Positions 6,871-40,015 of a DNA stretch of 64,000 bases are shown here, in pieces; the stretch's first letter is position 1; every line of letters begins with the position of its first letter. The stretch is from Eledone cirrhosa. Lineage: Eukaryota. Where the stretch lies: assembly GCA_964016885.1 (NCBI GenBank), contig OZ024745.1, positions 54,312,001 to 54,376,000 of the forward strand. Direction: 5' to 3'. The notes beneath the pieces are model-generated. The model was not told the origin of the DNA and did no database searches. It saw nothing but the letters and a program-made list of their open reading frames with translations. The translations under genes were made by a program, and so were the position numbers.

Positions 6871-7329
6871 CACATTTACGAATTATTGGTATCGGTATTT
6901 TTGCTAAAATCAATGTATGATATGTATTTGTTCTGCAAGATACTTGATGTGAAATTGTGTGCTGAAACCGATATTGTTATGTTTGAGGATGGTTATATTG
7001 TCTATACTGCCAATAGAGAGAAACACACGCACCATATAAGTTTCACTTTATCTTTATTGTTCGTTATTCATTTGATAATCAAAGTTCTTTTGTTACACAT
7101 TCTGTGACTTCCTCAATGATTATCTGTTTTATGAGTCCTTTTTTTCCTGGTCTTAAACTTCTACTATATCTCGTCTTTGTTTTTTTTTTGTGTGTTTCGT
7201 GTCCGCATACGTTTGCACCTGCATCTGTGTGTGCGTGTGTGTATATGTGTGTGTGTGGGTGTGTGCGTGTCTGTGTGTGCGTGTGTGTGTGTATACATTT
7301 TTTACTACACGGGTACACGAATAAATATA

Positions 7330-7510
7330 TAATTGTTTCTACTTTTGGCACACGGCCAGCAATTATCCCAGTGTATTACTGGTACTTTATTTTATCGATC
7401 CCGTAAGGATGAAAGGCAAAGTTAACCTCGGCTGGATTTGAACTCAGACCATAAAGGGCCGTAACTCTTTGCTGCAAAGCATGGCGTCCGACTCTCTACC
7501 GATACTGCCA
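7330..7510 (-). mobile_element. tRNA-derived SINE, same family
   Basis: Reverse complement of the 6658 copy (gaaaggcaaagttaacctcggc...gaactcagac...gatactgcca). Confidence 0.85.
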
Positions 7511-7512
7511 TA

Positions 7513-7638
7513 TAATTGTTTCTACTTTTGGCACAAGGCCAGTGATTATAACAGTACATTACTGGTACTTTATTTTATCGACCCCGTAAGGCCGAAAGGC
7601 AAAGTTAACCTTTGCCTTTCATCTTTACGGGGTCGATA
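7513..7638 (-). mobile_element. 5'-truncated SINE with a fold-back inverted 5' segment
   Basis: SINE 3' part on the minus strand, then the orientation switches at gaaaggcaaag-ttaac-ctttgcctttc. Confidence 0.8.
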
Positions 7639-9069: not shown

Positions 9070-10300
9070 TCTTGAAGAAGTATCCCATGTGGTTACTCAG
9101 GGAAAAACTGCACTCTTTCAGTTTTCGTACAATGATGAATTTATAATACAAGTCAGATTGATTTGAAGATGTTTCTCCGTTAGCAGTTAAATATTCGCTT
9201 CACTGTTTTACTTTTTGGCCTGATTCCTGCCCTTTCTTCTTTCCATTTAAGACTGCTTAGCAGAACTCTTAGCAGTACCTTACTGGAGTAGCTAATTAGA
9301 CTGATGACTTTGTAACTGATAGAGTCTTCAATTACCATTCCTGAGAATGAGTATCATCAGTCATTGAGTCTAATTCTTTTGCCACTGCTTCGTTTTCCAC
9401 GTAACTGTTAGTGACTTGATGAGCTTTGAACCTCTATGTTTCAGAGTTTTGATAAGATGTCATACACTACTGATAATTTTGCGTCATCGAGCATGCGCAC
9501 TGTCTCTTCGACCACCCGCTGGAGAATTGTAATACTAATTTGGTGGATTTAAATAGTTTGTGGTTATAGTGGTCTGAGTATGGCGAAGACCAACATCTGA
9601 TAAGTCCTGCCTGTGGGAAAGTTGCTTGTTTTGTCCTTCATCACAGTGGCAATGGGTTGCTTTGATTTCGTTAGCATTTTGAGGGTATCATAAACAGTTT
9701 TGCTGTTTCCCTATTTATATCTCCTTTGCTGATTGTTCATTGGTCTGTTATCCACTTCTCTATTGCTTTCCTCATTTCCATCTTCACCTTTTCATTCATA
9801 GTGATGTGCGTTTTCACATGATAATTTAGATTTTTTTCTGTTCTCATCTTAAATTTCATAGATTCAGGGTATCATTAGTGACCCATGGTTCCTATTTCCT
9901 TCTTTGATCTTGCTGTTACATGTATAGTGATGAAACTGAAGAACACATGTATGGAATTGATGAGTGAGATCATTCTAGTCCTCTTAATGTTTGGTTCAAA
10001 TCCCGCCGAGGTTAACTTTGCCTTTCATCCTTACGGGGTCGATAAAATAAAGTACCAGTAATCTACTGGGTAATTGCTGGCCTTGTGCCAAAAGTAGAAA
10101 CAATTATTGTATCACAGATTTTGATTTTCGTCTATAGTTGTTTCATTAAATACAGTCAACCGGATGTCAGCCAGTCATAAAATATTTCATGTGTATCTGG
10201 CAAGTTCTTGTGTAAATTCTTTCGTCCTTCCACAAGAGTAAAGGGCTTTAAGATTCCACGTCACAAAAAAACAGTATTTTGTTTGGAGAGATTGTTGTCA
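9070..10300 (-). pseudogene. Heavily decayed RTE(BovB-like) LINE with APE and RT remnants, interrupted by a SINE
   Basis: Manual minus-strand translation gives TWNLKALYSCGRTKEFTQELARY (APE N-terminus, ~10190-10265) and SYKVISLISYSSKVLLRVLL...EERAGIRPKSKTVKRIFNC (RT domains 1-2, ~9180-9320). Many stops and indels. Confidence 0.7.
9993..10108 (+). mobile_element. 5'-truncated tRNA-derived SINE
   Basis: ggttcaaatcccgccgaggttaactttgcctttcatcc...ggccttgtgccaaaagtagaaacaattat. Confidence 0.85.
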
Positions 10301-12474: not shown

Positions 12475-12779
12475 GGTTACATTGAAGTTTACCAATATAT
12501 ATCGTTGATGCTAATCAGTAACCTTAGTCCAGTAACCGAAAAAGTCTAAGGCAGTTTTTAGCCTTAGTAAATTTTGCTATAGACTGTTATGTCACGGACT
12601 GCAGAACGCTCTCTCTCTCTCTCACACACACACACACATACACACACTCTCTCTCTCTCTCTCTTTATATATATATATATTATGTGTGTATGTGTGAAAC
12701 CGGTGTGTTCGACGCTTTTTGGTGTAAACCGGTGGCAAAAACCGGAAATATAAGCACTCCATAAATAAGGATCGATAAA

Positions 12780-12965
12780 ATAATTGTTTCTACTTTAGGC
12801 ACAAGGCCAGCAATTACCCAGTGCATTACTGGTACTTTATTTTATCGACCCCGTAAGGATGAAAGGCAAAGTCAACCTCGGCGGGATTTGAACTCAGACC
12901 GAAAGGGACGTAACTATGCTGGAAAGCATGGCGTCCGACCCTCTACCGATACTGCCAATCCACCT
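12780..12965 (-). mobile_element. tRNA-derived SINE, full length
   Basis: Same family as 6658. TSD taaggatcgataaaataat at ~12766-12784 and ~12972-12990. Confidence 0.88.
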
Positions 12966-13565: not shown

Positions 13566-13566
<1 letters not shown>

Positions 13567-13644
<78 letters not shown>

Positions 13645-24430: not shown

Positions 24431-25060
24431 ATAAAATTCTGTCAATGAATTTATTGCCTTACAATCTGGAAGAATGATTCCCTAAGAGTTTACAAACTCC
24501 AACATATTTTATTATATTTTTGACATCAGAATCTAAACTGACTCTAATCCCAATATTTCACTTGAATATAACTAACTATAACTAACAAATCCAGCTTCTA
24601 ATATATATCTGTAAAGATATTGAAGTCATCCATAAACAATAAACTGTTAAATCAGCTATCACATTGCATTTATATATTACCTTAATTTGATATATCGTCA
24701 TATAGAGGAGAAATGGAGATATGGTTTCGAATATAAAAACGAAAGAAAAAAGAAAAAAGAAAAAAAACATTATTTTGTCTTCAGCCACGTGACTGTATCT
24801 GGACTCAACTCACTTAGGTACTATGATCACATTAATATTTCGTATTCCATTATATTGCCGAATATTTTCAGATAAAGTTGTCATAGTAGTTTAATATTGG
24901 TCAACTTTATAAGGCGGGGATATGATAGGACTACATTACCGTGTAGTGTACTTCTCTTATTTAGATCGATAAGAGGGGAAAAGTGATACTACTACTATTT
25001 CCAAAAGGGTGGAGCGAACCAGGCAAAGCTTATTTATTTACTCAGATACTACTGTATCCA

Positions 25061-25254
25061 ATAATAATTGTTTCTACTTTAGGCACAAGGCCAGCAATGA
25101 CCCAGTACATTACTGGAACTTTATTTTATCGACCGACCCCGTAAGGATGAAAGGCAAAGTTAACCTCGGCGGGATTTGAACTCAGACTGTAAAGGGACGT
25201 AACTATGCTAGAAAACATGGCGTCCAACCCTCTACCGATACTGCCAATTCACCG
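25061..25254 (-). mobile_element. tRNA-derived SINE (tandem copy 1)
   Basis: Same family. The head and flank tccatgctgtacccaataataat are duplicated in the adjacent copy. Confidence 0.88.
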
Positions 25255-25268
25255 TCCATGCTGTACCC

Positions 25269-25490
25269 AATAATAATGGTTTCTTATATAGGCACAAGGC
25301 CAGTAATTTTTTGGGGGAAGGGAAAGTCGATTAAATCGACCCCAGTGCGTGACTGGTACTTTATTTTATCGACCCCATAAGGGTGAAAGGCAAAGTTAAC
25401 CTCGGCGGGATTTGAACTCAGACTGTAAAGGGACGTAACTATGCTAGAAAACATGGCGTCCAACCCTCTACCGATACTGCCAATTCACCG
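25269..25490 (-). mobile_element. tRNA-derived SINE (tandem copy 2, long-3'-end variant)
   Basis: Head identical to copy 1, with the longer 3' module (gtcgattaaatcgaccccagtgcgtgac) also seen in the 6658 copy. Confidence 0.88.
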
Positions 25491-25695
25491 TCCATGCTGT
25501 ACCCAATAATAATGGAATGAGATGATATGGCTTTCGACACTAGATTCATCTCCGTGGCATTGTTTTCATAAAATGTTTCATATCCTAACATTCTTTATGT
25601 CAATAATAAAATGTCTTTCTGTCACCTTCTGCCGGGGTTTGAAAGCAGTCTATTACACAAAAACAGTAGCACTGTAGCGAATACATTTCTAATAG

Positions 25696-25760
<65 letters not shown>

Positions 25761-25972
25761 CTCTTTCTGTCTGACGTGTGGAATATCGCCGGTAAGTTTT
25801 TTGTTGATTTCTATGCAAAAAACCGATCTAATTGTTTGAAAAAATACATTTTGTAGATTAACCCCAAGCTGAATTGTCAGCTGGGTGGTAATCCCATTTT
25901 TCGCCCCTGTAGGGGCGAAAATTTTATTTAAAAAATTTTGTTTAAAATATCAGATTTTACAAAGTAAAAAAC

Positions 25973-27819
25973 TTGAGCAACACTAGAACGCTGGAGAACG
26001 TTAATAGAGAAAAGAGAGAGAAAGAGGCAGATATTAACGTTATATCTGCTTCTGCTGCTATGGACGTTGCCATAGATACTGTCACAAAAGAAAAAAATAT
26101 ATCAACATTTGAAAATGTTACAATTTCTACCGTCGAAGCGGAGAAAAATGACAATAACAGACAGGAAAACACAGCAAAAAAACCCATTGACATACATACA
26201 CATGAAAAAGACATCAACAACTCTACAGATACATCTACACATAAAATTTCCAACAACGATAACATCATTATCAACAACACCACCACACAAAAAAAGAAAA
26301 TGTCTTTCGCTGACACAGTGAACAAGAAACAAGATTTTATAAATCTTGATATCTCCAACGCAAGAGATATGCTCCAGCAAGGGAGAACATTTGTAACTTT
26401 CGAAGAAAGAGGTGGGTTTAGAATTAACTCACCCCTTGAATTAAAGGAAGACACAAACCGCCGATCAGTCACTTTTAGGACTGTGTCAAATTCGTCAAGA
26501 AAACCGACATTTGTTAATCAAGCAGATATAGAAGATTCTTTCAAGGAGATTCTAGGAAATGTCGATTTTCTCCAGCGAGGAAAACAGTACGGAAGTGTTT
26601 CCGTACTGTTTAAAAGCGAGGCACTCGCCCCAAAAAACTCTGTGACACCAATAGTGTCAAAAGTATACACCTTTTTCCCTACATACATGGGGAAAAGGAC
26701 ACAAAAAATAAAAATAAAAAACATACCTCCAAGCATTAACATCTGGTGGATCTTGGCTGGCTTCGTAGAGCCAGAAACAGACATAATACTTTCGATACGA
26801 AAATCCATTCGACAAAGGTGGGCGGGCACCGATTTGGAGATTCTGTTGCAAATGAAACCGGAGAGAATCTCCAAAATACCCGAAAGAGTCGTTATTGATA
26901 ATAACAACAAAATAAACATTTCGGTAGAAGGACGAACATTTCACTGCTTTCGCTGTGGTAGCACATCTCACCTAAAAGCCTCTTGTCCACAAACACACAA
27001 CAACAACATCATAAAAAAACGCTATTACCAACACCAACACCAAAACAACAACCACCACCACCACAAGTACAACGACAGACGAAACGAGCAACCACACCAA
27101 AACAAACAGACACTCAACCAACAACAACAGAAAAAACAGAGACAACACCCCTGAAGAACACATCCCCACTCCATCCCACTCCATCAAACACTACCACAGA
27201 CACACATACCGAAACACCACCACCACCACACAACATACCCTTACCCCACACACCTGACGATGATTATTCATCGACGGATGAAGCTGCTTCTCCTTCTTTA
27301 AGTGAAGAAGAGGGAGAACCGCGGAAATCCAAAAAACAAAAAAAGAGACACCACAAAACCCCCAAAACTCCAATCACCAACACCAACACACAACCACAGA
27401 CACAAACAACAACACAAACAAAACCACAGTCAAACATCCCCCTATCAGCAAAACCAGCACCAACACCACCCCAAACACAAGCACCCACCATAAAAAGAAA
27501 ACTCCCGGATGAACAACAAACTAAAACAATACAACAAAAACACAAACAACAATACGCATACATCAACACAAACAACAAGAGTTTGATGGAGGTCATCTCC
27601 CAAAACCCCAAGGTGGAGACGGGGGGCAAAACTTTCGTCAAGGCAGAATCGTCTCCACACCTTAAACTTATAAGGGTTTCTATGGAAACCTATAAAGACC
27701 TGAAAATTAAGTTTTCACAGGACGTGGGCAACCCCTGCCACAAACCCATCAACCGCGTCCTGTTGAAAGGTTTCCCCACCCCACCCAACACCCCCATCCA
27801 GCACCCAAATGGAGATTGA
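25973..27819 (+). pseudogene. Tx1 ORF1 (gag-like), frameshifted near 26990-27020
   Basis: Zinc knuckle CFRCGSTSHLKASC. The continuation KKTLLPTPTP...KPINRVLLKGFP is in another frame and matches copy 4 (CPQLNKKKTLLPTPAP; KPIKRVLLKSFP). Confidence 0.82.
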
Positions 27820-27890
27820 ACAACCCGATCTCCAGGAACGAAAAGGTAAGTGCACCTTTCGTCCTTTTTCTCCAACTTTTCTTCACCAAC

Positions 27891-30800
27891 ATGGCTGGTT
27901 TACGAGTTGGAACCGTGAATGTGCGTGGCCTAGGGATGCCCTGGAAACAGGGCCAACTTTTAAACGACCTTAGGTCACACAGTATGGATGTGATAGCCAT
28001 CACCGAGTCCAGAATCCACAACAGGCAGCAACTAACCCCCATCTTCGACGACTTTGAGATCTACGCATCTCTCTGTCAGCCAGGAGGTGGAGGTGGAGTG
28101 GCTGTTATGTTTCGGAAGAACCTGGACGTCGGAGTACAGCAAGTACACTTGGACCCGGAGGGTAGACTGGTAGTCCTAGACGTGAACAGTATCGGAGGTG
28201 GAGCCTTCAGACTGGTGGCCGTTTATGCCCCGACCGGGCAATCGCAATCACGGCCAGACTTCTTTAAGCGTCTAGAGTCTTTTCTGGGAACGTCTCGCTC
28301 CTTACTTTTAGTGGGGGACTGGAATGGTATCCTAGATGCACGATGGGACTATGTGGGAGCATGTCCCAGTAGAGCGGGGTGCAACAGCCTCAAAACTTTA
28401 ATCGGCCAATTCCAACTGGCCGATAGGTATCGACTGGATTTCCCGACTGCACCACAGTGGACGTGGGTAAACCGCAGTGGGACATCTAGATCGTATTTAG
28501 ATAGGTTCTTCATTAGAGAAAGGGACAGGGATATGTTAAGCTGTCCACGAATGCACATGGTTGCCTATTCAGATCACAAGTTAGTCGTCTGCTTAGTCAA
28601 CCGTGATAGAATACATAGACAGGGTCCCGGATACTGGAAGCTGAACGTGTCGTTGCCGGCACGTAAAGCTTACAGTGAACGGATAAGTAGACTAGTCAAG
28701 CAACAGTTAACGGGAGCCATCGTCAACAATAGATGGTGGTACTCTCTCAAGAAAGCAATTAGAATAGAATCGATAGGGTATAGCAGAGAGTTAGCCTTAG
28801 AGAAAAACAGAATAGAAAGAGAACTAGTAGCCAAGGTAGAGGAGGCATTTAGAAGTGGTAACGCGGCTAGAGTGTTAGCGTCGAGAACGGCACTGGACCA
28901 GTTCTTCGATGCGAAACACGAAGGCTGCGTGGTCAGAAGCAAAACACGTGCTCTAGGAAACGAAGGAGCGAAAGCTGTCAGCTGGGCCCGAGTGGCGGAG
29001 GCAAAAAGTGGCAACAAGTCCACGATTCGGTCTTTGAAAGACCAAAACGGACGCGTGCTACTTGACCCCAAGCAAATGTGCGCGGCCTTTCAGCGGCACT
29101 TTGCGCGACTGTTTGAGCAGAACGACGGTGAGCCGAACGGGGCAATGGACTTTAATTCATACTATCGACGGCCTGCCGCGTCTCTCGAACACGGACGCCG
29201 AGTTCTGCGAAAGACCGATCACGGACACTGAGATACGGGACGCTCTGGGCCGCTGCGGGAAACGCAAGTCACCCGGTCTAGATGGTCTACCCTACGAATT
29301 TTACATAGGCATGCCGGACTTGTTCTCTAGGGTCCTCGAAGCCGTCTACTGCAATTGGCAGCAGAACGGGAGAATTCCCAGTTCTGCAGGCAAGGGCGTA
29401 GTAACGCTGATCAGGAAAGACGAGAACAAGGGGGACGAAATTAACAACTTCAGGCCCATAACTCTGCTCAACACAGAGTTAAAGATTTTGGCCAAGGTGC
29501 TAGCGACCAGGTTGGCGCTTGTCGTCGAGAACCTGGTCGGGATAGCGCAAACGTGTGCAATCCCGACCAGGTCCATACACGACAACCTCCACCTCATGCG
29601 ATACATCATAGAGAGGGTGGGTAGTAAACCCGGCTTCAGTGGGGCTCTGATCAACTTGGATCAGTCTAAGGTATTCGATAGGGTCGACCATCGATACTTG
29701 GAAGCGGTTCTCAAGGCGGCCGGTTTCGGTCCCGTGTTCAGAGGATGGATCGAGGCGATGCACACCAGCATCTGCTCGAGGGTCAAGGTGAACGGCTACC
29801 TATCGGAGCCGTTCGCAATCACGCGTTCCATTCGACAGGGATGCCCTCTCTCCTCCATTCTGTATGTATTGACTCTAGAGCCACTACTGCGGAAATTGGA
29901 GCTGTTGCAGGGCATCCCTCTAGAACCGGGACTGCGCAAAGCGGCGTCGGTTTATGCCGACGACGTGACAGTAATGGTGTCGAGCACCTCGGAAATCGGG
30001 GTGATCGGCAACATACTGAAAGAATACGAAACGCTGACGGGAGCAAAACTAAACCCAGACAAGTCTGTCGGTTTGCAACTCGGTACGTGGAGAGGCAAAC
30101 CGATGACATCCGACAGCGTCGTTGGACGCTGGACGGACGGACCGGTGAAATTGCTCGGGGTCTGGTTCGGTCCAGACCTCCAGGTGGAGAAAAACTGGAA
30201 CGAGGTCACGGCCAAGGTGTTTGCACTCACTCAGAAGTGGGCAGAGTGCAAACTGTCCTTGAAAGGTTGAGCGGAGGTGGCGAACACTTTCATAGCGTCC
30301 GTCATCTACTACCGCTTGACTGTCGTGCCTTGTCCCCGTGAACACCTCGCCAAGATGGAACGCATGCTCTTCCAGTTTCTATGGAAGAAGCAGGCTCCGC
30401 TGGTGAGGAGATCCGTCTGCTGTCAGCACCTTTCCAACGGAGGGCTGGGAATGCCGTGGCTGATGATGCGCAAACATGCGCTGAGGCTGCGGCATCTCCA
30501 GGTATTCCTCACCGACGCCCAACCGGTGTGGGCACGGTTTGTGAGACAGGCTTTCCCACAGCTCGTCTCGCTAACGGAGCTGCAGTCCTGGGTGAAGAAA
30601 AGACCGAAAACGATGGGCGCCTGGCACATTGAATGCGCTCAGGCGCTCACAGTCCTCTGGCAAGCGGGCGCAGCAATCAGTGGAGACTCCACTTCGACAT
30701 TCTATAGAGGGATTGTACGTTACAAGGGCGACGACGTGCTCGGAGAGACTCTGGGCGTCGAATACGATGAGCTCACCAGTCTGTTTGGTAGGACTTTCCG

Positions 30801-31338
30801 CCCGGGACCTATGGACAACTTCCAGAGATCCCTGGCCTGGCAGTGCTACCGAGGAGCTCTACCGATTCGTGACAAGATCTACAGGCACGGACGCCCTGGC
30901 AGGGATCCTTCCAAGAGGACGTGTCCAAGATGTGCGCAGGACATTGAAACAGTTCTGCACGCAATTGTACACTGCCCAGGCGTAAGCGACCTGTGGAACT
31001 ATGCAGAACAACTGCTGTCGCGTATGGGACAAATACAGTTGACTGCCGAGTCCATAGTAAGGATCAAACCGCCAGACTCTTTCAAAAACGAAAGAGAGGC
31101 GGTTTTCCTCTGTACGGTGGCAATGGTGAAAGAAGTTATATGGTGGACGAGGTTGAGAGGACTGAGGACAGATGCCTTTCTCTCCGGACAACAATTGATT
31201 CCCTTCTTTAAGTATCACTTTAGAAGGAGAATCAGGGTGGAGAGAGAGGCACTGCACCCCAGTAAATTTACTGAAAGGTGGGTGAATGAAGCGAAAATGG
31301 CCCGAGTGATTGGGCCTTCTCTGTTTATAAGCCTGTAG
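27891..31338 (+). pseudogene. Tx1 ORF2 (APE + RT + zf-RVT); frameshift ~29160, premature TGA at 30268-30270
   Basis: TVNVRGL, VYAP, GDWN, YLDRF, SDHK, GPGYWKLN, KSPGLDGLPYEFY, FRPITLLN, RQGCPLS, YADD, GGLGMP, CPRC...ETVLHAIVHC. Copy 4 reads KGRAEVAN at the stop position. Confidence 0.9.
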
Positions 31339-31572
31339 GTTGAGGAAGAGAGCAAAAGGAAGAAAGGAGCACTTGCACAACACGCTCCTCGAGTTGAGGT
31401 TTGTTCTATCGACGGGGTATTAAACAACCCATTTGTGGCGCCTCCCACCTATTGGGGATTTCGATTGTTGAAATTGTTTGTTTTTCATATTTTTTACACG
31501 ACTGTATATAAAATCCCCGGCATGTCTTTGTATTGTCCCCTTTCTTGTTGCGCCCTTGTGGCTAATAAAGAA

Positions 31573-31634
<62 letters not shown>

Positions 31635-31649
31635 ATATCTATCTACCTA

Positions 31650-31870
31650 GGAGAGGAAAGGGGTACAAACTCTTCGTACTCCTGGAGATGAGGGTTGCAC
31701 ATTTTTTCGGGGGTATGTGTTACCCATATGTAATGTCTAGCCCTATTGGGGAAAATCGATTAACTTTTAAATTGTATTTGTGATAGTATTTTACACGTTT
31801 TTATTGTATGTAAACTTCCCCCTTTGTATTTGTCCCCTTCTGTTGTGCCCCTGTGGCTAATAAACAAACA

Positions 31871-31871
<1 letters not shown>
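31650..31871 (+). mobile_element. Tx1 copy 2, 3'UTR only
   Basis: gggttgcacattttttcggggg...ttgtatttgtcccc...gtggctaataaa matches the other 3'UTRs. (TCTA)n on both sides. Confidence 0.85.
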
Positions 31872-31902
<31 letters not shown>

Positions 31903-32968
31903 GTTTGTGAGACGAACCTTTCCCAGACTCGTCTCACTCACCGAGCTGCAATCCTGGGTCAAGCAAAGACCGAGAAAACTGGGCGCCTGGCACACTGAGT
32001 GTGCCCAGGCGCTCACCGCCCTCTGGCAGGCGGATCCGGTTATCAGTGGAGACTCCACCGCAACATTCTATAGAGGGCTGGTACGCAGCAGGTGCGACGA
32101 CGCCCTCGGAGAAGCCCTAGACATGGAGGAGGACGAGCTGGCCAGCCTGTTCGGTAGGACATTCAGCCCGGGACCTATGGACAACTTCCAGAAGTCCCTG
32201 GCCTGGCAGTGCTACCGAGGGGCTTTACCCGTTCGAGAAAGGCTCTACAGACACGGGCGCCCGGGTAGGGACCCCGCCAAAAAGATCTGTCCCAGATGCG
32301 TGTGCGACGAGGAAACCGTTGCACACGCATTGGTACACTGCTCGGGCGTAGCCGATCTGTGGGGCTATGTCGAACAACTGCTGTCAAGGGTGGGACCGAT
32401 CCGGTTGACCACCGAGTCTATTGTAATGATCAAGCCGCCTCCCCCCTTCAAAGATGAAGCAGAGGCGGTGTTTCTGTGCGTAATAGCCATGGCGAAAGAG
32501 GTTGTATGGTGGACGCGTCTGAAAGGACTGAGGTCAGGCACCTTTCTCTCTGGCCAACAACTGGTCCGTTTCTTCCGATATCATTTCGGAAGAAGGATCA
32601 GGATGGAGAGAGAGGTGCTGCACCCCAGCCGTTTCTATGAAAGATGGGTGAAAGTGGCGAGAATGGCCCGTGTGAATGGGCCTTCACTCTACATCAGACT
32701 ATAGGTGAGGAAGATGAAAGACCAAGGGAGCACCCCTTCTCTGTGCTCCTGAGGAGAAGGGTTGCACACTTTTTTCGGGGGTGTGTGCGACCCCCCAAGG
32801 CGCCTCCTCTCTATTGAGGATTTTGTTATAAATTTTATTTTTTGTTATATCTTATTTTATTTTTATATTTTGTTATTGCCTCCTCCTTATTGAGGACGCC
32901 TTTTTGTGTAAACTCCCCCCTTTGTACTTGTCCCACTTTTGATGCCCTAGTGGCAAATAAAAGAAACA
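31903..32968 (+). mobile_element. Tx1 copy 3, 5'-truncated (open ORF2 C-terminus to 32704 plus 3'UTR)
   Basis: FVRRTFPRLVSLTELQSW...CPRC...HALVHC...ARVNGPSLYIRL*. (TCTA)n flanks. Confidence 0.92.
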
Positions 32969-33042
<74 letters not shown>

Positions 33043-33314
33043 CCTATCCACCTATCCACCTACCTATCTATCTATACATACATCAATCTAGATGTCGTCT
33101 GTTCTACAGTGTGGATGTCATTCACTTCGCACAGAAGTTTTGTTCAAATTTATTGAGGAAATTTTGTGAGTTCAAACTTAATTTTGATACAATTGTGTAC
33201 CTTGACCCTTCGTCTGAACTGTCAGGCGGTGGGTCAGCTCATCTTTACCCCTCCTAGAGGTGAAAAACCTGTTTTAAACAATTTTGTGTAAAAAATTTCA
33301 ATCGTCTAACAGAA

Positions 33315-35211
33315 ATGTTAAACGCAGCGAACGAAAATAGTGGTGGGGGGACAGCGGTAAGAGTTGTAAGCTCGCACGCTTTAGTCCCCCCTTCCTTCCC
33401 AACTAACGTCATAGAGAAGGAAGGAAAAATAAAAATAAAAACAGACGAATCTGCGGAGAAAAAAAATGACGAAAACACAAATCTGGACATGGATTCCAAC
33501 AACGAAAAAAAAAAAAAATTTGAAAAATTGCATGACAATACTAATAACACAAACAAAGACACAACAAACACAAAAATAACATTTGAAAATAACACCATAA
33601 CAGAAAGCAAAGCAGACGACAAGATTTCATTTGCACAGAAAACAAAGAAATCTTTGACTTATATAGCGGAAAATATTTCAGATGTGGCACGAAGGATCAC
33701 AGACGCCAAACAATACATAAGTGAAGGAGAGAATGGTATTTTATCGGTAAAAATGCCTCAAGAATTCACCAAAGACATTGAAAGCCGAACGGTCAAGTTT
33801 CGGACCATCAACAACAGTACAAAAAAACCTGAACAGCCTTCTCAAGCAGATATCAAAACAGTACTCACAGAAGTACTTAATGAAACCACTTTCATAAGAA
33901 AAGACAGACTGTATGGAAGCCTAGCAATTATCATGAAGAACGAATCGGCGGCAAAAAAATGTGCTTTGTTACCGATTCGTTCGAAAAATTTCACCTTTTA
34001 TCCATCTTATATGGGGAAAAGAACTCAACGCATATGGCTGGATGCAATGATGCCAGATGTGGACTACTGCTGGCTCATAGCTGGCTTCATCGATCCAGTG
34101 AATGACAACGTGATTTCCATTGGGAAAACCACAGGCAATGCGTTCAGTGGAACAGGTATAGAGCTGGTAGTGCAAATGAAGCCTGAACGCATCGCCCAAA
34201 TACACGACAGAATCCTATTAGAGGACCACGGGTATATAAACATTAGCGTGGAGGGGAGAAGGCCGTCCTGCCATATCTGTGCAGGCAGAGGGCACCTGAA
34301 GGCCGCTTGTCCCCAACTCAACAAAAAGAAAACCCTGCTACCAACACCAGCTCCACCACTACCACCACAACAGATAAACAAACAACAAAACTCAGTCCCA
34401 CCCAACCCGTCCCTCAGTAAAACCACAACACCACCACAACACAAACAGTCACAACACATTACCCCAAAACAAAATACAGGCCCACCCAACCTCTCACTTA
34501 ATAAAACAACACAACCACCGCAGACACAACACACAACACAGTCTAACATAGTGACATCCATCTCCCCCACAAAGAAAACCAACACGGAAACATTACCAGC
34601 AAACATACCTCTTCCCTCCAACACTGAAGATAACCTAACGAATTCGGAGGAAGAAACGGAGTCCTTCAGACAGATTAAAAGGAAAAAAAGAAAACATGTG
34701 CAAAACACACAAGGCCAAACAACCCCCACCCAAATCTCAACACAATCCAACAAAACAGGAAACACCCCTCCAGCAACAAACAAAACCAAACCTGCCCCTC
34801 CCCTCTTCGAAACACTCACACCATCCGAAAAAAGACATTACACTATACTTACATCAACAGAAACAATAATAAATTAAATGAACTCATATACAATAATCCT
34901 TCGGTACAAACCGAAGGTGTAAACTTTGTTTCGTCAGAAAACTACCCACATTTAAAATTAATAAAGATCCCAATGAACCTCTACCAAAAACTAAAAAAGG
35001 ATTTTAAGGAGGACGTAGGACCACCCTCTGTCAAACCCATAAAGCGCGTCCTACTAAAAAGCTTTCCCCCTCCCCTTCCCCTCCCCAACACAACTCCAAA
35101 CACCCCAACCCCACCACACACTGACGACCCCACACCACCACAAGACACCCCGTCACCCAACAACCCCGACCCCATGGAAGTCGTGCAAACCGAACCCCGG
35201 GAAGCGGAAAG
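33315..35211 (+). pseudogene. Tx1 copy 4 ORF1 (frameshift ~34865); its C-terminal part runs in frame into ORF2
   Basis: CHICAGRGHLKAAC knuckle. ORF 34973..36544 joins the ORF1 C-terminus (KPIKRVLLKSFP) to the APE domain with no stop. Confidence 0.8.
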
Positions 35212-35248
35212 GTATGTCTCTACACTCTCCTTTGGCTCTGCCGCCCAC

Positions 35249-38240
35249 ATGGATGTGTTAAGAGTAGGATGTTTGAATGCACGTGGCCTGGGCTCAACTT
35301 GGAAGCAAGCAAAGCTTCTAAATGACCTCAGGTCATGTAGTATAAATGTAATGGTTATCTGTGAGACTCGAATCAGCGTCGTGCGGCAGCTGGCCCCCAC
35401 CTTCGATGACTTTGAGGTGCATGCATCTCTCTGTCAACCTGGAGGTGGGGGTGGGGTTGTCGTACTGCTGCAAAAACACCTGGGTCTTGCCGTACAGGTT
35501 GTGCACTCGGACCCGGAGGGTCGTTTGTTGGTGCTAGACGTTGGCAGTAGTGAAAGTGCGGCCTTGAGACTGGTCGCCGTCTACTCCCCTTTCGGAGCTG
35601 AACGGCCCGACTTCTTCCAGCGTTTGGAGACTTTTCTGGGAACGTCGCGTTCCCTGCTTCTAGCGGGGGATTGGAATGACATCCTGGATGCACGTTGGGA
35701 CTATGCAGGAGCATGTCCTAATAGAGGGGGGTGTAACAGCCTAAAGGGGTTACTCGACCGTTTTAACTTGGTCGATAGATATCGACTAGATTTTCCAACT
35801 GTGCCTACCTGGACTTGGAGAAACCACAGTGGTCAATCTACATCGTACTTAGATAGATTCTTAGTTAGAAGTAAGGATAGGGACATATTAAGCTGTTCAG
35901 AAATGCGCACGGTTGGCTACACGGATCACAAATTAGTGACCTGCGTGGTCAATCTCGAGAAAACACATAGACAGGGTCCCGGTTACTGGAAAGTTAATTT
36001 GTCTTTACCGGCAAAAGAGACTTACAGAAACCGGATTAGCAGATTAGTTAAGGAGAGGTTGACGGGTGCAATCGTCAACAACCGATGGTGGGCATCTCTC
36101 AAAAGAGAGATTAGAACAGAATCAATAAGTTATAGCAAGATGTTAGCTGCCGATAGGAATAGAAACGAGAAAGAATTAACAGGTAAATTAGAAGAGGCAA
36201 TCAAGAGCGTAGATGTGGCCAGAGTGCTGGCATCGAGGACGGCCTTGAACCAGTTTTTCGATGCAAAGCACGAAGGCTGCGTCATTCGAAGTAAAATACG
36301 TGCTCTAGGTTATGAGGGGACCAAAGCCGTTGGATGGGCCCGAGTGACAGAAGCTAAGAGTGGAAATCGATCCACCATCCGGTCGTTGCAAGACGAAGAT
36401 GGACGGGTGATCCGGGAGCCTAAGCAGATGTGCGAGGCCTTTCAAAGGCACTTTGCCCGATTGTTCGGGGGAGGCGAGGGTCCGGACGCGGGCGTGGATT
36501 TCGGGCCATACCTCGACGGCCTGCCGCGTCTCTCGAGCGAATAGGCAGAGTCCTGCGAGGGACCAATCTCGGCTGATGAGATCGGAGATGCGCTGAGCCA
36601 ATGCAGCAGACGCAAATCTCCAGGTCTCGATGGTATACCTTACGAACTTTATTTAGCAATGTCGGTCTTCTTCTCCGAACTCCTCGAAGCGGTCTACTGC
36701 AATTGGCAGCAGAACGGGAGAATTCCTTGTTCTGTAGCCAAGGGCGTAGTCACGCTGGTGAGGAAGGACGAGAACAAGGGGGATAGTATAAATAATTTTC
36801 GGCCCATAACCCTGCTAAACACAGAGTTAAAGATTTTGGCCAAGGTGTTAGCAAAGAGGTTGGCGCTTGTCGTGGATAGCCTGGTGGGAGATGCGCAGAC
36901 ATGTGCTATCCCATCCAGGTCCATTCACGATAACCTCCACCTCATGCGATACATCATAGAGAGGGTTGGCAACAAACCCGGCTTCGGTGGGGCCCTGATC
37001 AACTTGGATCAGTCTAAGGCCTTCGATAGGGTCGACCATGGTTACCTGGATGCGGTGCTAGCGGCGGCTGGGTTCGGTCCTGTTTTCAGAGGCTGGATAA
37101 CTGCCTTACATAGCAACCACATCTGTTCTAGGATCAAGGTGAACGGCTACCTTTCGAAGCCGTTCGAAATCACACGATCCATTCGACAGGGGTGCTCTCT
37201 CTCCTCCCTTCTGTACGTATTGACTCTCGAGCCTTTACTGAGGAAGTTGGAGTTGTTGCAGGGTATCCCCCTGGAACCAGGATTGAGCAAAGCGGTGTCG
37301 GCCTACGCCGATGACGTAACAGTAATGGTATCGACCGACTCGGAAATCGAGGCGATCGGTACCTTACTGGAGGAGTACGAAAGGTTGTCAGGAGCGAAAC
37401 TGAACCGGGAAAAATCCATCGGGCTGCAACTCGGAACGTGGAGAGGCAGACCGATGCCTCCTGACGGTGTCGTCGGACACTGGACGGAGGGCCCGGTAAA
37501 GTTGCTTGGGGTCTGGTTTGGACCGGACCTCCAGGTGGAAAAGAACTGGAACGAGGTTACGAACAAGGTGTTTGCACTAACCCAGAAATGGGCCAAGTGT
37601 AAGCTGTCCCTAAAAGGCCGGGCGGAGGTGGCGAACATTTACATAGCGTCCGTCACTTACTACCGTCTGACTGTCGTGCCTTGCCCTAAGGAAACACTCA
37701 CCACCATGGAACGCATGCTCTTCCAATTTCTTTGGAAGAAGCGCCCTCCTATGGTGAGAAGATCCATCTGCTGCCAACAACCTTCGAAGGAGGGCTGGGG
37801 ATGCCGTGGTTGATGATGCGTAGGCACGCATTAAGGCTACGGCACCTACAGGTATTCCTCACTGGTCAACCGGTGTGGGCTCCGTTCGTGAAACGAGCCT
37901 TTCCGAGACTCGTCTCGCTCACCGAGATTGACCACCGAAATTGACCGCCGAGTCCGTGATGACAATCAAACCGCCTCCCCTCTTCACAAAGGAAGCAAAG
38001 GCGGTTTTTCTGTGCGTAATAGCCATGTTGAAAGAGGTTGTTTGGTGGACACGATTGAAAGGTCTGAGGTCAGGCAACTTCCTCTCTGGCCATAGTCTGG
38101 TCTACTTCTTCCGATATCACTTCGGAAGAAGGATAAGAATGGAGAGAGAGGTGCTTGGCCACAGGCAGTTTTATGAAAGGTGGGTGATAGTGGCGAGAAT
38201 GGCTCGTGTAAATGGGCCTTCTCTGTATACCATCCTGTAG
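35249..38240 (+). pseudogene. Tx1 copy 4 ORF2; stop at 36542-36544, frameshifts ~36600-36660 and ~37785, ~460-bp deletion at ~37930
   Basis: CLNARGL, GDWN, TDHK, FRPITLLN, RQGCSLS, YADD. Jumps from LVSLTE to LTAES, losing zf-RVT. Confidence 0.88.
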
Positions 38241-38644
38241 GTAAAGAAGTAAAGGAGAGGGGAGCACCTTCTCCATGTGCTCCCCGGGCAAAGGATTGCA
38301 CACTTTTTCGGGGGTGTGTGCAACCCCCATCACGTCCCCTCCCTTTTGAGATTATTTTCGATTGTTTTCATGTTACCCCCTTTTTACTCGATTATATGTA
38401 AACTCCCCCTTTGTATTTGTCCCTTCTTTTTATGCCTTTATGGTAAATAAAGAAATCTATCTATACATACATACACACCTACATATATACATATGTATTT
38501 GTATGTATGTATATCTATATGAATGTATGTAGGCATACATATATGTCAGATATAGTGAGCGTGATGTGGGTATTTGGATGTAATTATGCAGACTAAACTT
38601 ATATGCATCAACACACATACACACTCACGTATATACACACTCAC

Positions 38645-39709: not shown

Positions 39710-40015
39710 GCAACCATCGTTGCTGGTTTGTTCAACACTGACAAAAGAACGCTGTACTAGTTTCAAGCTTATTAGCTATCGTCAGCAACGTATACCTTCC
39801 TGCCAGATTGTTGAACGTATATACTTACCGTATGCGTATTCTGGCAGGAAGGTATACGTTGCTGACGATAGCTAATAAGCTTGAAACTAGTACAGCGTTC
39901 CTTTGTCAGTGTTGAACAAACGAGAAACGATGGTTGCTGGACACTACGGCTTAATACGGTATGTTTGTTTACAAACACACCGAGCATTATAATAAATGTT
40001 CGGTGAATCCATACG
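39710..40015 (+). mobile_element. Palindromic hammerhead-bearing element, family C
   Basis: Inverted repeat 39710-39937 with a 32-nt spacer at 39808-39839, then an unpaired tail. Embedded in TA/CATA microsatellite. Confidence 0.78.
39856..39898 (+). ncRNA. Minimal type I hammerhead ribozyme (mirror copy at 39749-39791, minus strand)
   Basis: ACGTTG-CTGACGA-tAGCT aata AGCTt-GAAA-CTAG-TA^-CAGCGT. Palindromic ACTAGT stem III, predicted GUA cleavage after 39892. Confidence 0.87.

What the first reader, a model, noticed from the sequence alone, without database searches (positions are those of the whole stretch)
27809..38245. Tx1 retrotransposons whose entire ORF2 looks like an intron (copia-like subgenomic ORF1 mRNA)
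Seen: both full-length copies have a strong donor motif ~40 nt before the ORF2 ATG, AG|GTAAGT (27845|27846) and AG|GTATGT (35211|35212), although the surrounding sequence has diverged. In copies 1, 3 and 4 the ORF2 stop is a TAG preceded by a pyrimidine-rich stretch and followed by a GA-rich segment (cctgTAG|gttga 31338; actaTAG|gtga 32704; cctgTAG|gtaa 38240). Joining donor to acceptor gives an immediate stop: copy 4 ...GAA AG|G TAA, and copy 1 (MEIEQ...K frame) AAA G|GT TGA. The stop offset differs by one nt exactly as the donor phase does. In copy 4 the unspliced RNA fuses the ORF1 C-terminus in frame to ORF2. Known: copia-type LTR elements make excess Gag by splicing out pol; I do not know of this as a standard mechanism for L1/Tx1 LINEs. 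Caveats: in copy 1 the current ORF1 frame stops at 27819, before the donor, and the TAG|GT sites could alternatively be donors.
Basis: partly seen in the sequence, partly recalled or inferred. Interest (0 to 1): 0.8.

Follow-up and report, generated by a model that had tools for sequence, protein, structure and literature searches.

The report
Octopod LINE with splice-like ORF ends
Four copies of a LINE jumping gene sit nested in TATC repeats, and a splice-donor-like motif marks the end of its first gene; this is likely just that gene's stop-codon context, but splicing-out of the whole enzyme gene remains possible and untested in RNA.

Summary
The donor is above chance (only 9/9 site among 289 GTs of copy 1; nulls 0.002-0.03), and 2 of 8 ORF1 relatives end in the peptide footprint of such a donor. 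The rest is weaker than claimed. In copy 1 the 'donor' reads AGG TAA in the real ORF1 frame, the same phase as copy 4's AGG TAT, so the 'one-base compensation' needs an assumed frameshift, and copy 4's fusion can be a lost stop. The acceptor's pyrimidine tract is what ORF2's last residues give (P 0.08-0.72), and related families lack the immediate stop. No run on record as RNA was available. No donor-acceptor joint is among 15 of 220 joints shown, and one contig crosses the acceptor unbroken. Copy 4 is not full length (about 460-nt deletion). Verdict: ordinary bicistronic LINE 0.45, ORF2-removing intron 0.33, donor used otherwise 0.2. One junction search in octopod RNA-seq would decide.

The parts
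25696..25759 (+). (TATC)16 tract 5' of copy 1, the likely target
25760..31575 (+). Copy 1: full-length, decayed Tx1-like LINE (5'UTR, ORF1, ORF2, 3'UTR, AATAAA at 31564)
26060..27849 (+). Copy 1 ORF1 (CCHC knuckle, low-complexity linker, conserved C-terminal domain); frameshift between the frames 25946-27154 and 26962-27819; in-frame TGA 27817-27819 and in-frame TAA 27847-27849
27843..27851 (+). Donor-like AAG|GTAAGT = AGG TAA GT in the ORF1 frame; only 9/9 site of 289 plus-strand GTs in copy 1
27891..31338 (+). Copy 1 ORF2 (APE endonuclease, RT, zf-RVT); frameshift near 29150 and stop at 30268-30270
31314..31365 (+). ORF2 stop TAG|GT with GPSLFISL codons upstream and purine-rich 3'UTR start
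31576..31631 (+). (TATC)14 between copies 1 and 2
31650..31870 (+). Copy 2: 3'UTR only, 5'-truncated just downstream of the ORF2 stop
31903..32968 (+). Copy 3: 5'-truncated, ORF2 C-terminus and 3'UTR; stop TAG|GTGAGG at 32704
32969..33040 (+). (TATC)18 between copies 3 and 4
33086..38455 (+). Copy 4: both ends present, decayed, about 460-nt deletion at 37927-37940
33315..35215 (+). Copy 4 ORF1; one-base frameshift at 34827 that the relatives in three runs do not share; ends AGG TAT, with no stop before ORF2
35209..35217 (+). Donor-like AAG|GTATGT, one of three 8/9 sites among 278 plus-strand GTs in copy 4
35249..38240 (+). Copy 4 ORF2, in frame with ORF1 across a 33-nt spacer; stop TAG|GTAAAG at 38240
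38260..38285 (+). 3'UTR hairpin GGAGCAC..GTGCTCC, predicted in copies 1, 3 and 4

Best explanation
Four copies of a Tx1-like LINE lie head to tail in (TATC)n tracts, and they likely work as ordinary two-gene LINEs in which the 'donor' is the ORF1 Arg-stop context (AGG TAA) and the 'acceptor' is the ORF2 Leu-stop (CTG TAG), with no dedicated ORF2-removing intron. Shown: domains, microsatellite flanks, TAA in the ORF1 frame of copy 1, 41- and 33-nt spacers. Inferred: one unspliced RNA gives ORF1p from the first cistron and a little ORF2p by reinitiation, as established for human L1; copy 4's in-frame fusion comes from a TAA-to-TAT change in a dead copy; the TGA at 27817 is a private nonsense change of copy 1; the purine-rich 3'UTR start corresponds to the polypurine motif of L1 3'UTRs.
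For: AGG TAA at 27844-27849 is in the ORF1 frame, 41 nt before the ORF2 ATG; one substitution at 27817 (copy 4 has C at the aligned place) accounts for the earlier TGA, and copy 1 has another premature TGA at 30268 where copy 4 has a CGG codon. None of the 8 relatives with the ORF1 C-terminal domain runs on into the endonuclease. The acceptor tract is explained by the peptide (P 0.72, 0.34, 0.08). An immediate phase-2 stop follows GT by chance in 27-38% of shuffles, and none of the 3 loose-end consensuses from related families has a stop just after TAG in any phase; one reads TAG|AC, one has a purine-broken tract (table 7; agreement only 0.58-0.75). A second shared 8/9 donor (31278/38180) arises from the conserved ERWV codons, so shared strong donors can come from protein constraint. 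In run X4 one contig (record 14, 37971-38452) crosses the acceptor unbroken. Human L1 has in-frame ORFs separated by a 63-bp spacer with in-frame stops and a 3'UTR polypurine motif (PMC5860796, introduction read).
Against: The donor is unlikely under a stop-only null: 0.0017 for 8/9 or better overlapping a stop, 6.5e-5 for 9/9, 0.006-0.03 by position. It is 9 of 10 identical between copies whose 4-fold sites are 55% identical and whose spacer is 14 of 31 identical, including the GT behind the stop. Two ORF1 relatives only 32% identical to each other end in EGKS* and QGK*, the peptide footprint of a phase-1 donor. TAGGT is 5 of 5 identical against 9 of 18 in the next 25 nt. Whether copy 4's family has TAA or TAT at 35213-35215 could not be read (40 of 1237 differences shown).
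Confidence: 0.45

Rival explanations
1. ORF2 is a facultative intron of about 3.5 kb. Part of the RNA would be spliced from the donor at the ORF1 end to the ORF2 stop, giving an ORF1-only mRNA that keeps the 3'UTR and poly(A) signal and encodes nearly the same ORF1p (copy 4: AG|G TAA; copy 3 acceptor: AG|G TGA); unspliced RNA would remain the template and ORF2p source. A weak acceptor would suit partial splicing.
For: Donor statistics and conservation. 2 of 15 proteins hit by the C-terminal-domain profile (8 at E<1e-3) end in the phase-1 donor footprint, background 0.48% per cut, binomial P 0.002, or 0.29 if a terminal Arg is also counted; the footprint was written down after seeing the two proteins and their DNA was not seen. 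TAG is kept in 3 of 3 window copies and 3 of 3 loose-end consensuses, GT in 5 of these 6. The stop AG ranks among the best 5 of 340 AGs in copy 4 and the best 9 of 394 in copy 1 on my simple score. Copia elements make Gag this way (PMC7197481, passages).
Against: No spliced molecule seen; no ORF2-less copy among the 4 in the window; no 35211-38241 joint among 15 of 220 joints shown; X4 record 14 bridges the acceptor. Copy 1 already has a stop at the donor, so splicing is not needed to free ORF1p. Tract explained by the peptide; immediate stop missing in related families.
Confidence: 0.33
2. The ORF1-end donor is selected at RNA level but does not splice to the ORF2 stop. It, and the AG|GTRAG-like site at the ORF2 stop, would act as U1 binding sites that modulate polyadenylation of the A-rich RNA, or as donors to acceptors outside the element, such as the acceptor-like site in the 5'UTR of the next copy.
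For: The T of TAG|GT is kept even where no stop follows, which suits a donor better than an acceptor; copy 3 reads AG|GTGAGG. AATAAA/ATTAAA hexamers lie in ORF1 of both copies. The best-scoring AG of copy 1 is in its 5'UTR (25912) with a counterpart in copy 4 (33257/33259). The U1 role is recalled general knowledge, not from a call.
Against: No RNA data; the ORF2-stop sites are weak donors in copy 1 and in the loose-end consensuses; ORF2, downstream of the donor, holds no AATAAA/ATTAAA hexamer in either copy.
Confidence: 0.2

Closest known systems
Microsatellite-targeting Tx1-clade LINEs: Kibi (TC)n, Koshi (TTC)n, crocodilian Tx1 in (TTCC)n/(TTTC)n (PMC4494074, passages read); L1-Tx1 families of Octopus vulgaris, 13 recently active families with 421 insertions (PMC13282606, first third read)
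   Same: APE endonuclease + RT + Cys-rich end, ORF1 with CCHC knuckle, about 5.4-5.8 kb, copies nested in one microsatellite in one orientation
   Different: Target is (TATC)n, not among the targets named in the passages I read; placement in the Tx1 clade was not tested by a tree; no splicing described for these families in my searches
Ty1/copia subgenomic GAG RNA (Drosophila copia, Arabidopsis EVADE/SISYPHUS; PMC7197481, passages read)
   Same: If the rival holds: an abundant spliced RNA that drops the enzymes and makes only the structural protein
   Different: Copia are LTR elements with one gag-pol frame and need the splice; here copy 1 has a stop at the ORF1 end, none of 8 relatives is fused, and no spliced RNA was seen
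Human L1 splice sites and SpIREs (PMC5860796, abstract and introduction read)
   Same: Splice sites inside a LINE RNA; in-frame ORF1/ORF2 with a short spacer; polypurine 3'UTR
   Different: SpIRE splicing is within the 5'UTR or from 5'UTR into ORF1 and is described as a dead end; it does not remove ORF2
HAL1 (half-L1), ORF1-only non-autonomous L1 derivatives (PMC5753468 and PMC13756887, passages; the original paper PMC2923044 is not held and was not seen)
   Same: What a retrotransposed ORF2-less RNA would look like
   Different: No ORF1-only copy was seen here; whether HAL1s arose by splicing could not be read

Membership tests
L1 group / Tx1 clade LINE | ORF2 with N-terminal APE endonuclease, RT and C-terminal Cys-rich domain | tested here: met
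   Pfam Exo_endo_phos, RVT_1 above cut-off; zf-RVT just under cut-off (26.6 and 27.4 against 27.5 bits); nearest solved structures are L1 ORF2p, 118 bits, against R2, 79 bits
L1 group / Tx1 clade LINE | Separate ORF1 with nucleic-acid-binding domains and CCHC knuckle | tested here: met
   CxxCxxxxHxxxxC in both copies; no Pfam hit; Atlas look-alikes are zf-CCHC/ZCCHC3-type RNA-binding clusters at 0.90-0.92, a lead only
Tx1 clade | RT phylogeny within Tx1 rather than L1 proper | not tested
Target-specific Tx1 | Insertion into one repeated target, in one orientation | tested here: met
   4 of 4 copies abut (TATC)n at the 3' end and follow a TATC tract, all on +; one locus only
Copia-type subgenomic splicing | Structural and enzyme genes in one fused frame | tested here: inconclusive
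   Fused in copy 4, stop in copy 1; 0 of 8 relatives fused; family letter at 35215 not shown
Copia-type subgenomic splicing | Conserved donor at the end of the structural gene | tested here: met
   2 of 2 copies that have the region, 9 of 10 identical; peptide footprint in 2 of 8 relatives
Copia-type subgenomic splicing | Conserved functional acceptor followed by a stop | tested here: inconclusive
   TAG kept 6 of 6, GT 5 of 6, but tract explained by the peptide and no immediate stop in 3 of 3 loose-end consensuses
Copia-type subgenomic splicing | Spliced RNA observed | not testable with these tools
   No listed holder on record as RNA
HAL1-like ORF1-only element | Genomic copies with ORF1 joined to the 3'UTR | tested here: inconclusive
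   0 of 4 copies in the window; none among 15 of 220 joints shown; X4 record 14 bridges the acceptor; no whole genome was held

The most novel reading that the evidence does not exclude
An octopod Tx1-like LINE lineage treats its entire ORF2 as a spliceosomal intron: a donor built into the ORF1 stop and an acceptor built into the ORF2 stop yield an ORF1-only mRNA with an unchanged ORF1p C-terminus, a copia-like way of setting ORF1p:ORF2p ratio not found for any LINE in my ten literature searches.
Probability: 0.33. Interest if true: 0.78.

Novelty: new member of a known kind. Interest (0 to 1): 0.45.

Why it matters
As it stands: one more microsatellite-targeting Tx1-like family, with a (TATC)n target in octopods. 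If the intron is real, a LINE would set its ORF1p excess by splicing rather than only by poor ORF2 reinitiation, converging on the copia solution; it would offer a direct route to HAL1-like ORF1-only elements, and it would mean that 'LINE expression' measured in cephalopod RNA partly counts RNAs that cannot transpose in cis. The test is one junction query in existing RNA-seq.

Tried and rejected
No whole genome held. No RNA holder listed; this is no evidence on expression. Only copy 4 was laid, on 4 of 20 listed runs, all contigs; tables were cut (40 of 1237 letter differences, 12 of 65 indels, 15 of 220 joints, 24 of 1854 loose ends), so missing rows prove nothing. The higher contig depth over ORF1 than over 5' ORF2 in X4 was not used as evidence: the tool forbids ranking by depth, and two variants that part near 35121 could account for it. 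Word-based protein searches with ORF1 (0 of 1420 candidates) and with the ORF1/ORF2 junction among shorter proteins (0 of 38) found nothing. No DNA of relatives: metagenome scan gave 2 distant endonuclease loci, unused; viral and prokaryote scans gave none. A stem-loop pairing the pyrimidine tract with the GA-rich segment is not significant (z 0.74, 0.31, -0.73). CpG decay as the cause of the TGA at 27817 was rejected: 0 of 8 C>T/G>A changes among the 18 of 40 rows that I used are in CpG, and CpG o/e is about 0.9. Copy 4's deletion is not a splice (microhomology). No Rfam match in 1-41000. No Atlas hit for the ORF1 C-terminal domain. The script stopped before the copy 1 versus copy 3 comparison. 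Donor and acceptor scores are simple counts against a recalled consensus, not a trained octopod model. Literature searches (open-licence papers only) listed no LINE that splices out ORF2; Repbase entries and subscription papers, including the HAL1 paper, were not seen, and the O. vulgaris supplement held no sequences.
Full report
What is there. The region 25.7-38.5 kb is a head-to-tail array of four related non-LTR retrotransposons on the + strand, each ending in AATAAA plus a few bases and then (TATC)n, with (TATC)16 also in front of the first. Copy 1 (25760-31575) is full length but broken by frameshifts and stops; copy 2 is a 3'UTR fragment; copy 3 is 5'-truncated in ORF2; copy 4 (33086-38455) has both ends but lacks about 460 nt of ORF2 at 37927-37940, joined at a CACCGAG microhomology. 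ORF2 has an APE endonuclease, RT and a zf-RVT-like end and is closer to L1 ORF2p than to R2 among solved structures. ORF1 has a CCHC knuckle, a low-complexity linker and a roughly 70-residue C-terminal domain shared with relatives. The relatives with a species name are from Argonauta hians, Octopus sinensis, O. bimaculoides and O. vulgaris, so the host is probably an octopod (inference). Copies 1 and 4 are different subfamilies: 77% DNA identity in ORF2, 55% identity at 4-fold sites, 38% protein identity in the ORF1 core. Short contigs of four public runs lie over most or all of copy 4 (359, 15556, 2590 and 85 laid), so the family is repetitive.

The donor. Both motifs are at the stated places. 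Counting matches to the recalled consensus MAG|GTRAGT, 27845 is the only 9/9 site among 289 plus-strand GTs of copy 1, and 35211 is one of three 8/9 sites among 278 in copy 4. The ten bases are 9 of 10 identical between the copies, against 23 of 32 just upstream and 14 of 31 in the spacer. Null models: a stop codon drawn with ORF1 codon usage overlaps a donor of 8/9 or better with P 0.0017 (9/9: 6.5e-5); a shuffled 100-nt stretch holds one with P 0.006; by density alone P is 0.03 for the last 60 nt. These are for one family picked out of a large scan, and the two copies are not independent. One other 8/9 donor is shared by both copies (31278/38180) and comes from conserved ERWV codons, so shared strong donors arise about once per element without any splicing role. 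Independent support is modest: of 15 proteins hit by a profile of the ORF1 C-terminal domain (8 at E<1e-3, 6 of them in the seed), two end in EGKS* (P0006, Argonauta) and QGK* (P0009), the peptide that a phase-1 donor at the ORF1 end would encode; background 0.48% per cut, P 0.002, or 0.29 if a terminal Arg counts as well. The two are 32% identical in the core.

The frame problem. In copy 1 the motif reads AGG TAA GT in the frame of ORF1 itself (..PNGD*TTRSPGTKR*), i.e. phase 2, the same as AGG TAT in copy 4. One substitution at 27817 explains the data as cheaply, and then copy 1 is a plain two-gene LINE with a 41-nt spacer, and copy 4 is the same with TAA changed to TAT and an in-frame 33-nt spacer. 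Human L1 also has in-frame ORFs with a 63-bp spacer (PMC5860796). In phase 2 the copy 1 splice would add 27 residues rather than stop. The laid contigs show an extra A at 34827 that joins copy 4's two ORF1 frames, so the C-terminal domain does belong to ORF1; they show no indel between 35127 and 35249 among 12 of 65 rows, and the letter at 35215 is not among the 40 of 1237 differences shown, so TAA versus TAT in the family is open. None of the 8 relatives with the C-terminal domain continues into the endonuclease.

The acceptor. TAG|GT ends ORF2 in copies 1, 3 and 4, and TAGGT is 5 of 5 identical between copies 1 and 4 against 9 of 18 in the next 25 nt. On a simple score the site is among the best 5 of 340 AGs in copy 4, 9 of 394 in copy 1, and 10 of 73 in copy 3. 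But the tract encodes GPSLxIxL, an end similar to TLSMHL and TLNMRF of the two ORF2 relatives, and synonymous resampling reaches the observed score with P 0.72, 0.34 and 0.08. An immediate phase-2 stop after GT has a 27-38% chance in these purine-rich UTRs. Three loose-end consensuses from related families all keep TAG at the same place; two keep GT, one reads AC; none has a stop just after it in any phase, and one has a purine-broken tract (table 7, agreement 0.58-0.75; 24 of 1854 rows shown). A polypurine motif in the 3'UTR is a described L1 feature. No significant stem-loop spans the stop.

Direct tests. No listed run is on record as RNA, and no genome was held. Of 220 joints, the 15 shown do not include 35211-38241, and in run X4 a 505-nt contig (37971-38452) crosses the acceptor unbroken, which speaks against an abundant joined form in that run, whatever its kind. 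Contigs drop rare variants, so this does not exclude splicing. None of the four copies in the window is ORF2-less.

Weighing. I put a selected, RNA-level role of the ORF1-end donor at slightly above one half, and the ORF2 stop as its partner at about 0.6 of that, because it is the only conserved AG after ORF2 that I could see in the three-copy alignment that would leave the poly(A) signal in place. This gives 0.33 for the intron, 0.2 for another use of the donor, and 0.45 for an ordinary bicistronic element. These odds are judgement, not computed. The copia comparison is apt for how the rival would work (PMC7197481), but the defining need for it, a fused frame, is not established.

Known versus new. 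Microsatellite-targeting Tx1 families are known (PMC4494074), and O. vulgaris has 13 recently active L1-Tx1 families (PMC13282606). (TATC)n is not among the targets in the passages read. Splicing inside LINE RNA is known for human L1 (5'UTR, dead-end SpIREs) and for TART antisense RNA (PMC1636488, passages); ORF1-only HAL1 elements exist. Ten searches of the open library listed no LINE that splices out ORF2; most hits were seen as listings only, and Repbase and subscription papers were out of reach. Earlier notes of this scan held nothing on this family.

Noticed in passing
window:25696-38460: All four copies sit in (TATC)n in one orientation; a (TATC)19 tract at 13566-13641 is empty. A (TATC)n target is not named in the Tx1 passages read.
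   Followed up: partly
window:25789-25912 and 33163-33259: Copy 1's 5'UTR has an 8/9 donor (CCG|GTAAGT, 25791) and the best-scoring AG of the element (25912), a possible 121-nt SpIRE-like intron; the AG lies in the loop of a 10-bp hairpin (z -2.92). Copy 4 keeps an acceptor-like site (33257/33259) but not the aligned donor.
   Followed up: partly
window:27505-27786 and 34880-35070: A roughly 70-residue ORF1 C-terminal domain (..Y..LK..F..DVG..) behind the low-complexity linker, shared with 8 relatives; no Pfam or Atlas hit.
   Followed up: partly
window:35121-35260: Contigs of X4 and X5 show a second variant that differs at 35121-35126, cannot be aligned over 35180-35260 and rejoins in ORF2: a hint that one ORF1 is shared by two ORF2 types.
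   Followed up: no
window:31365-31390, 32722-32750, 38260-38285: 3'UTR hairpin GGAGCAC..GTGCTCC predicted in copies 1, 3 and 4, a candidate RT-recognition signal.
   Followed up: partly
window:2559-5006 (-): An open 815-codon frame of another LINE with RT followed by a PHD finger (Pfam); 5' end lost in an (AT)n tract.
   Followed up: no
window:40978-64000 (-): More than 22 kb of a 69-bp tandem repeat whose minus strand reads as long Thr/Pro/Ile-rich mucin-like frames broken by stops and frame changes.
   Followed up: no
window:40189-40588: Near-perfect palindrome, 195-nt arms 99% complementary with a 10-nt loop; a shorter inverted duplication is visible by eye at about 39740-39930.
   Followed up: no
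window:6656-6870, 7324-7611, 9994-10113, 12779-12964, 25060-25515: Copies of a roughly 190-bp interspersed repeat, 83-96% alike, some in tandem; probably a SINE.
   Followed up: no
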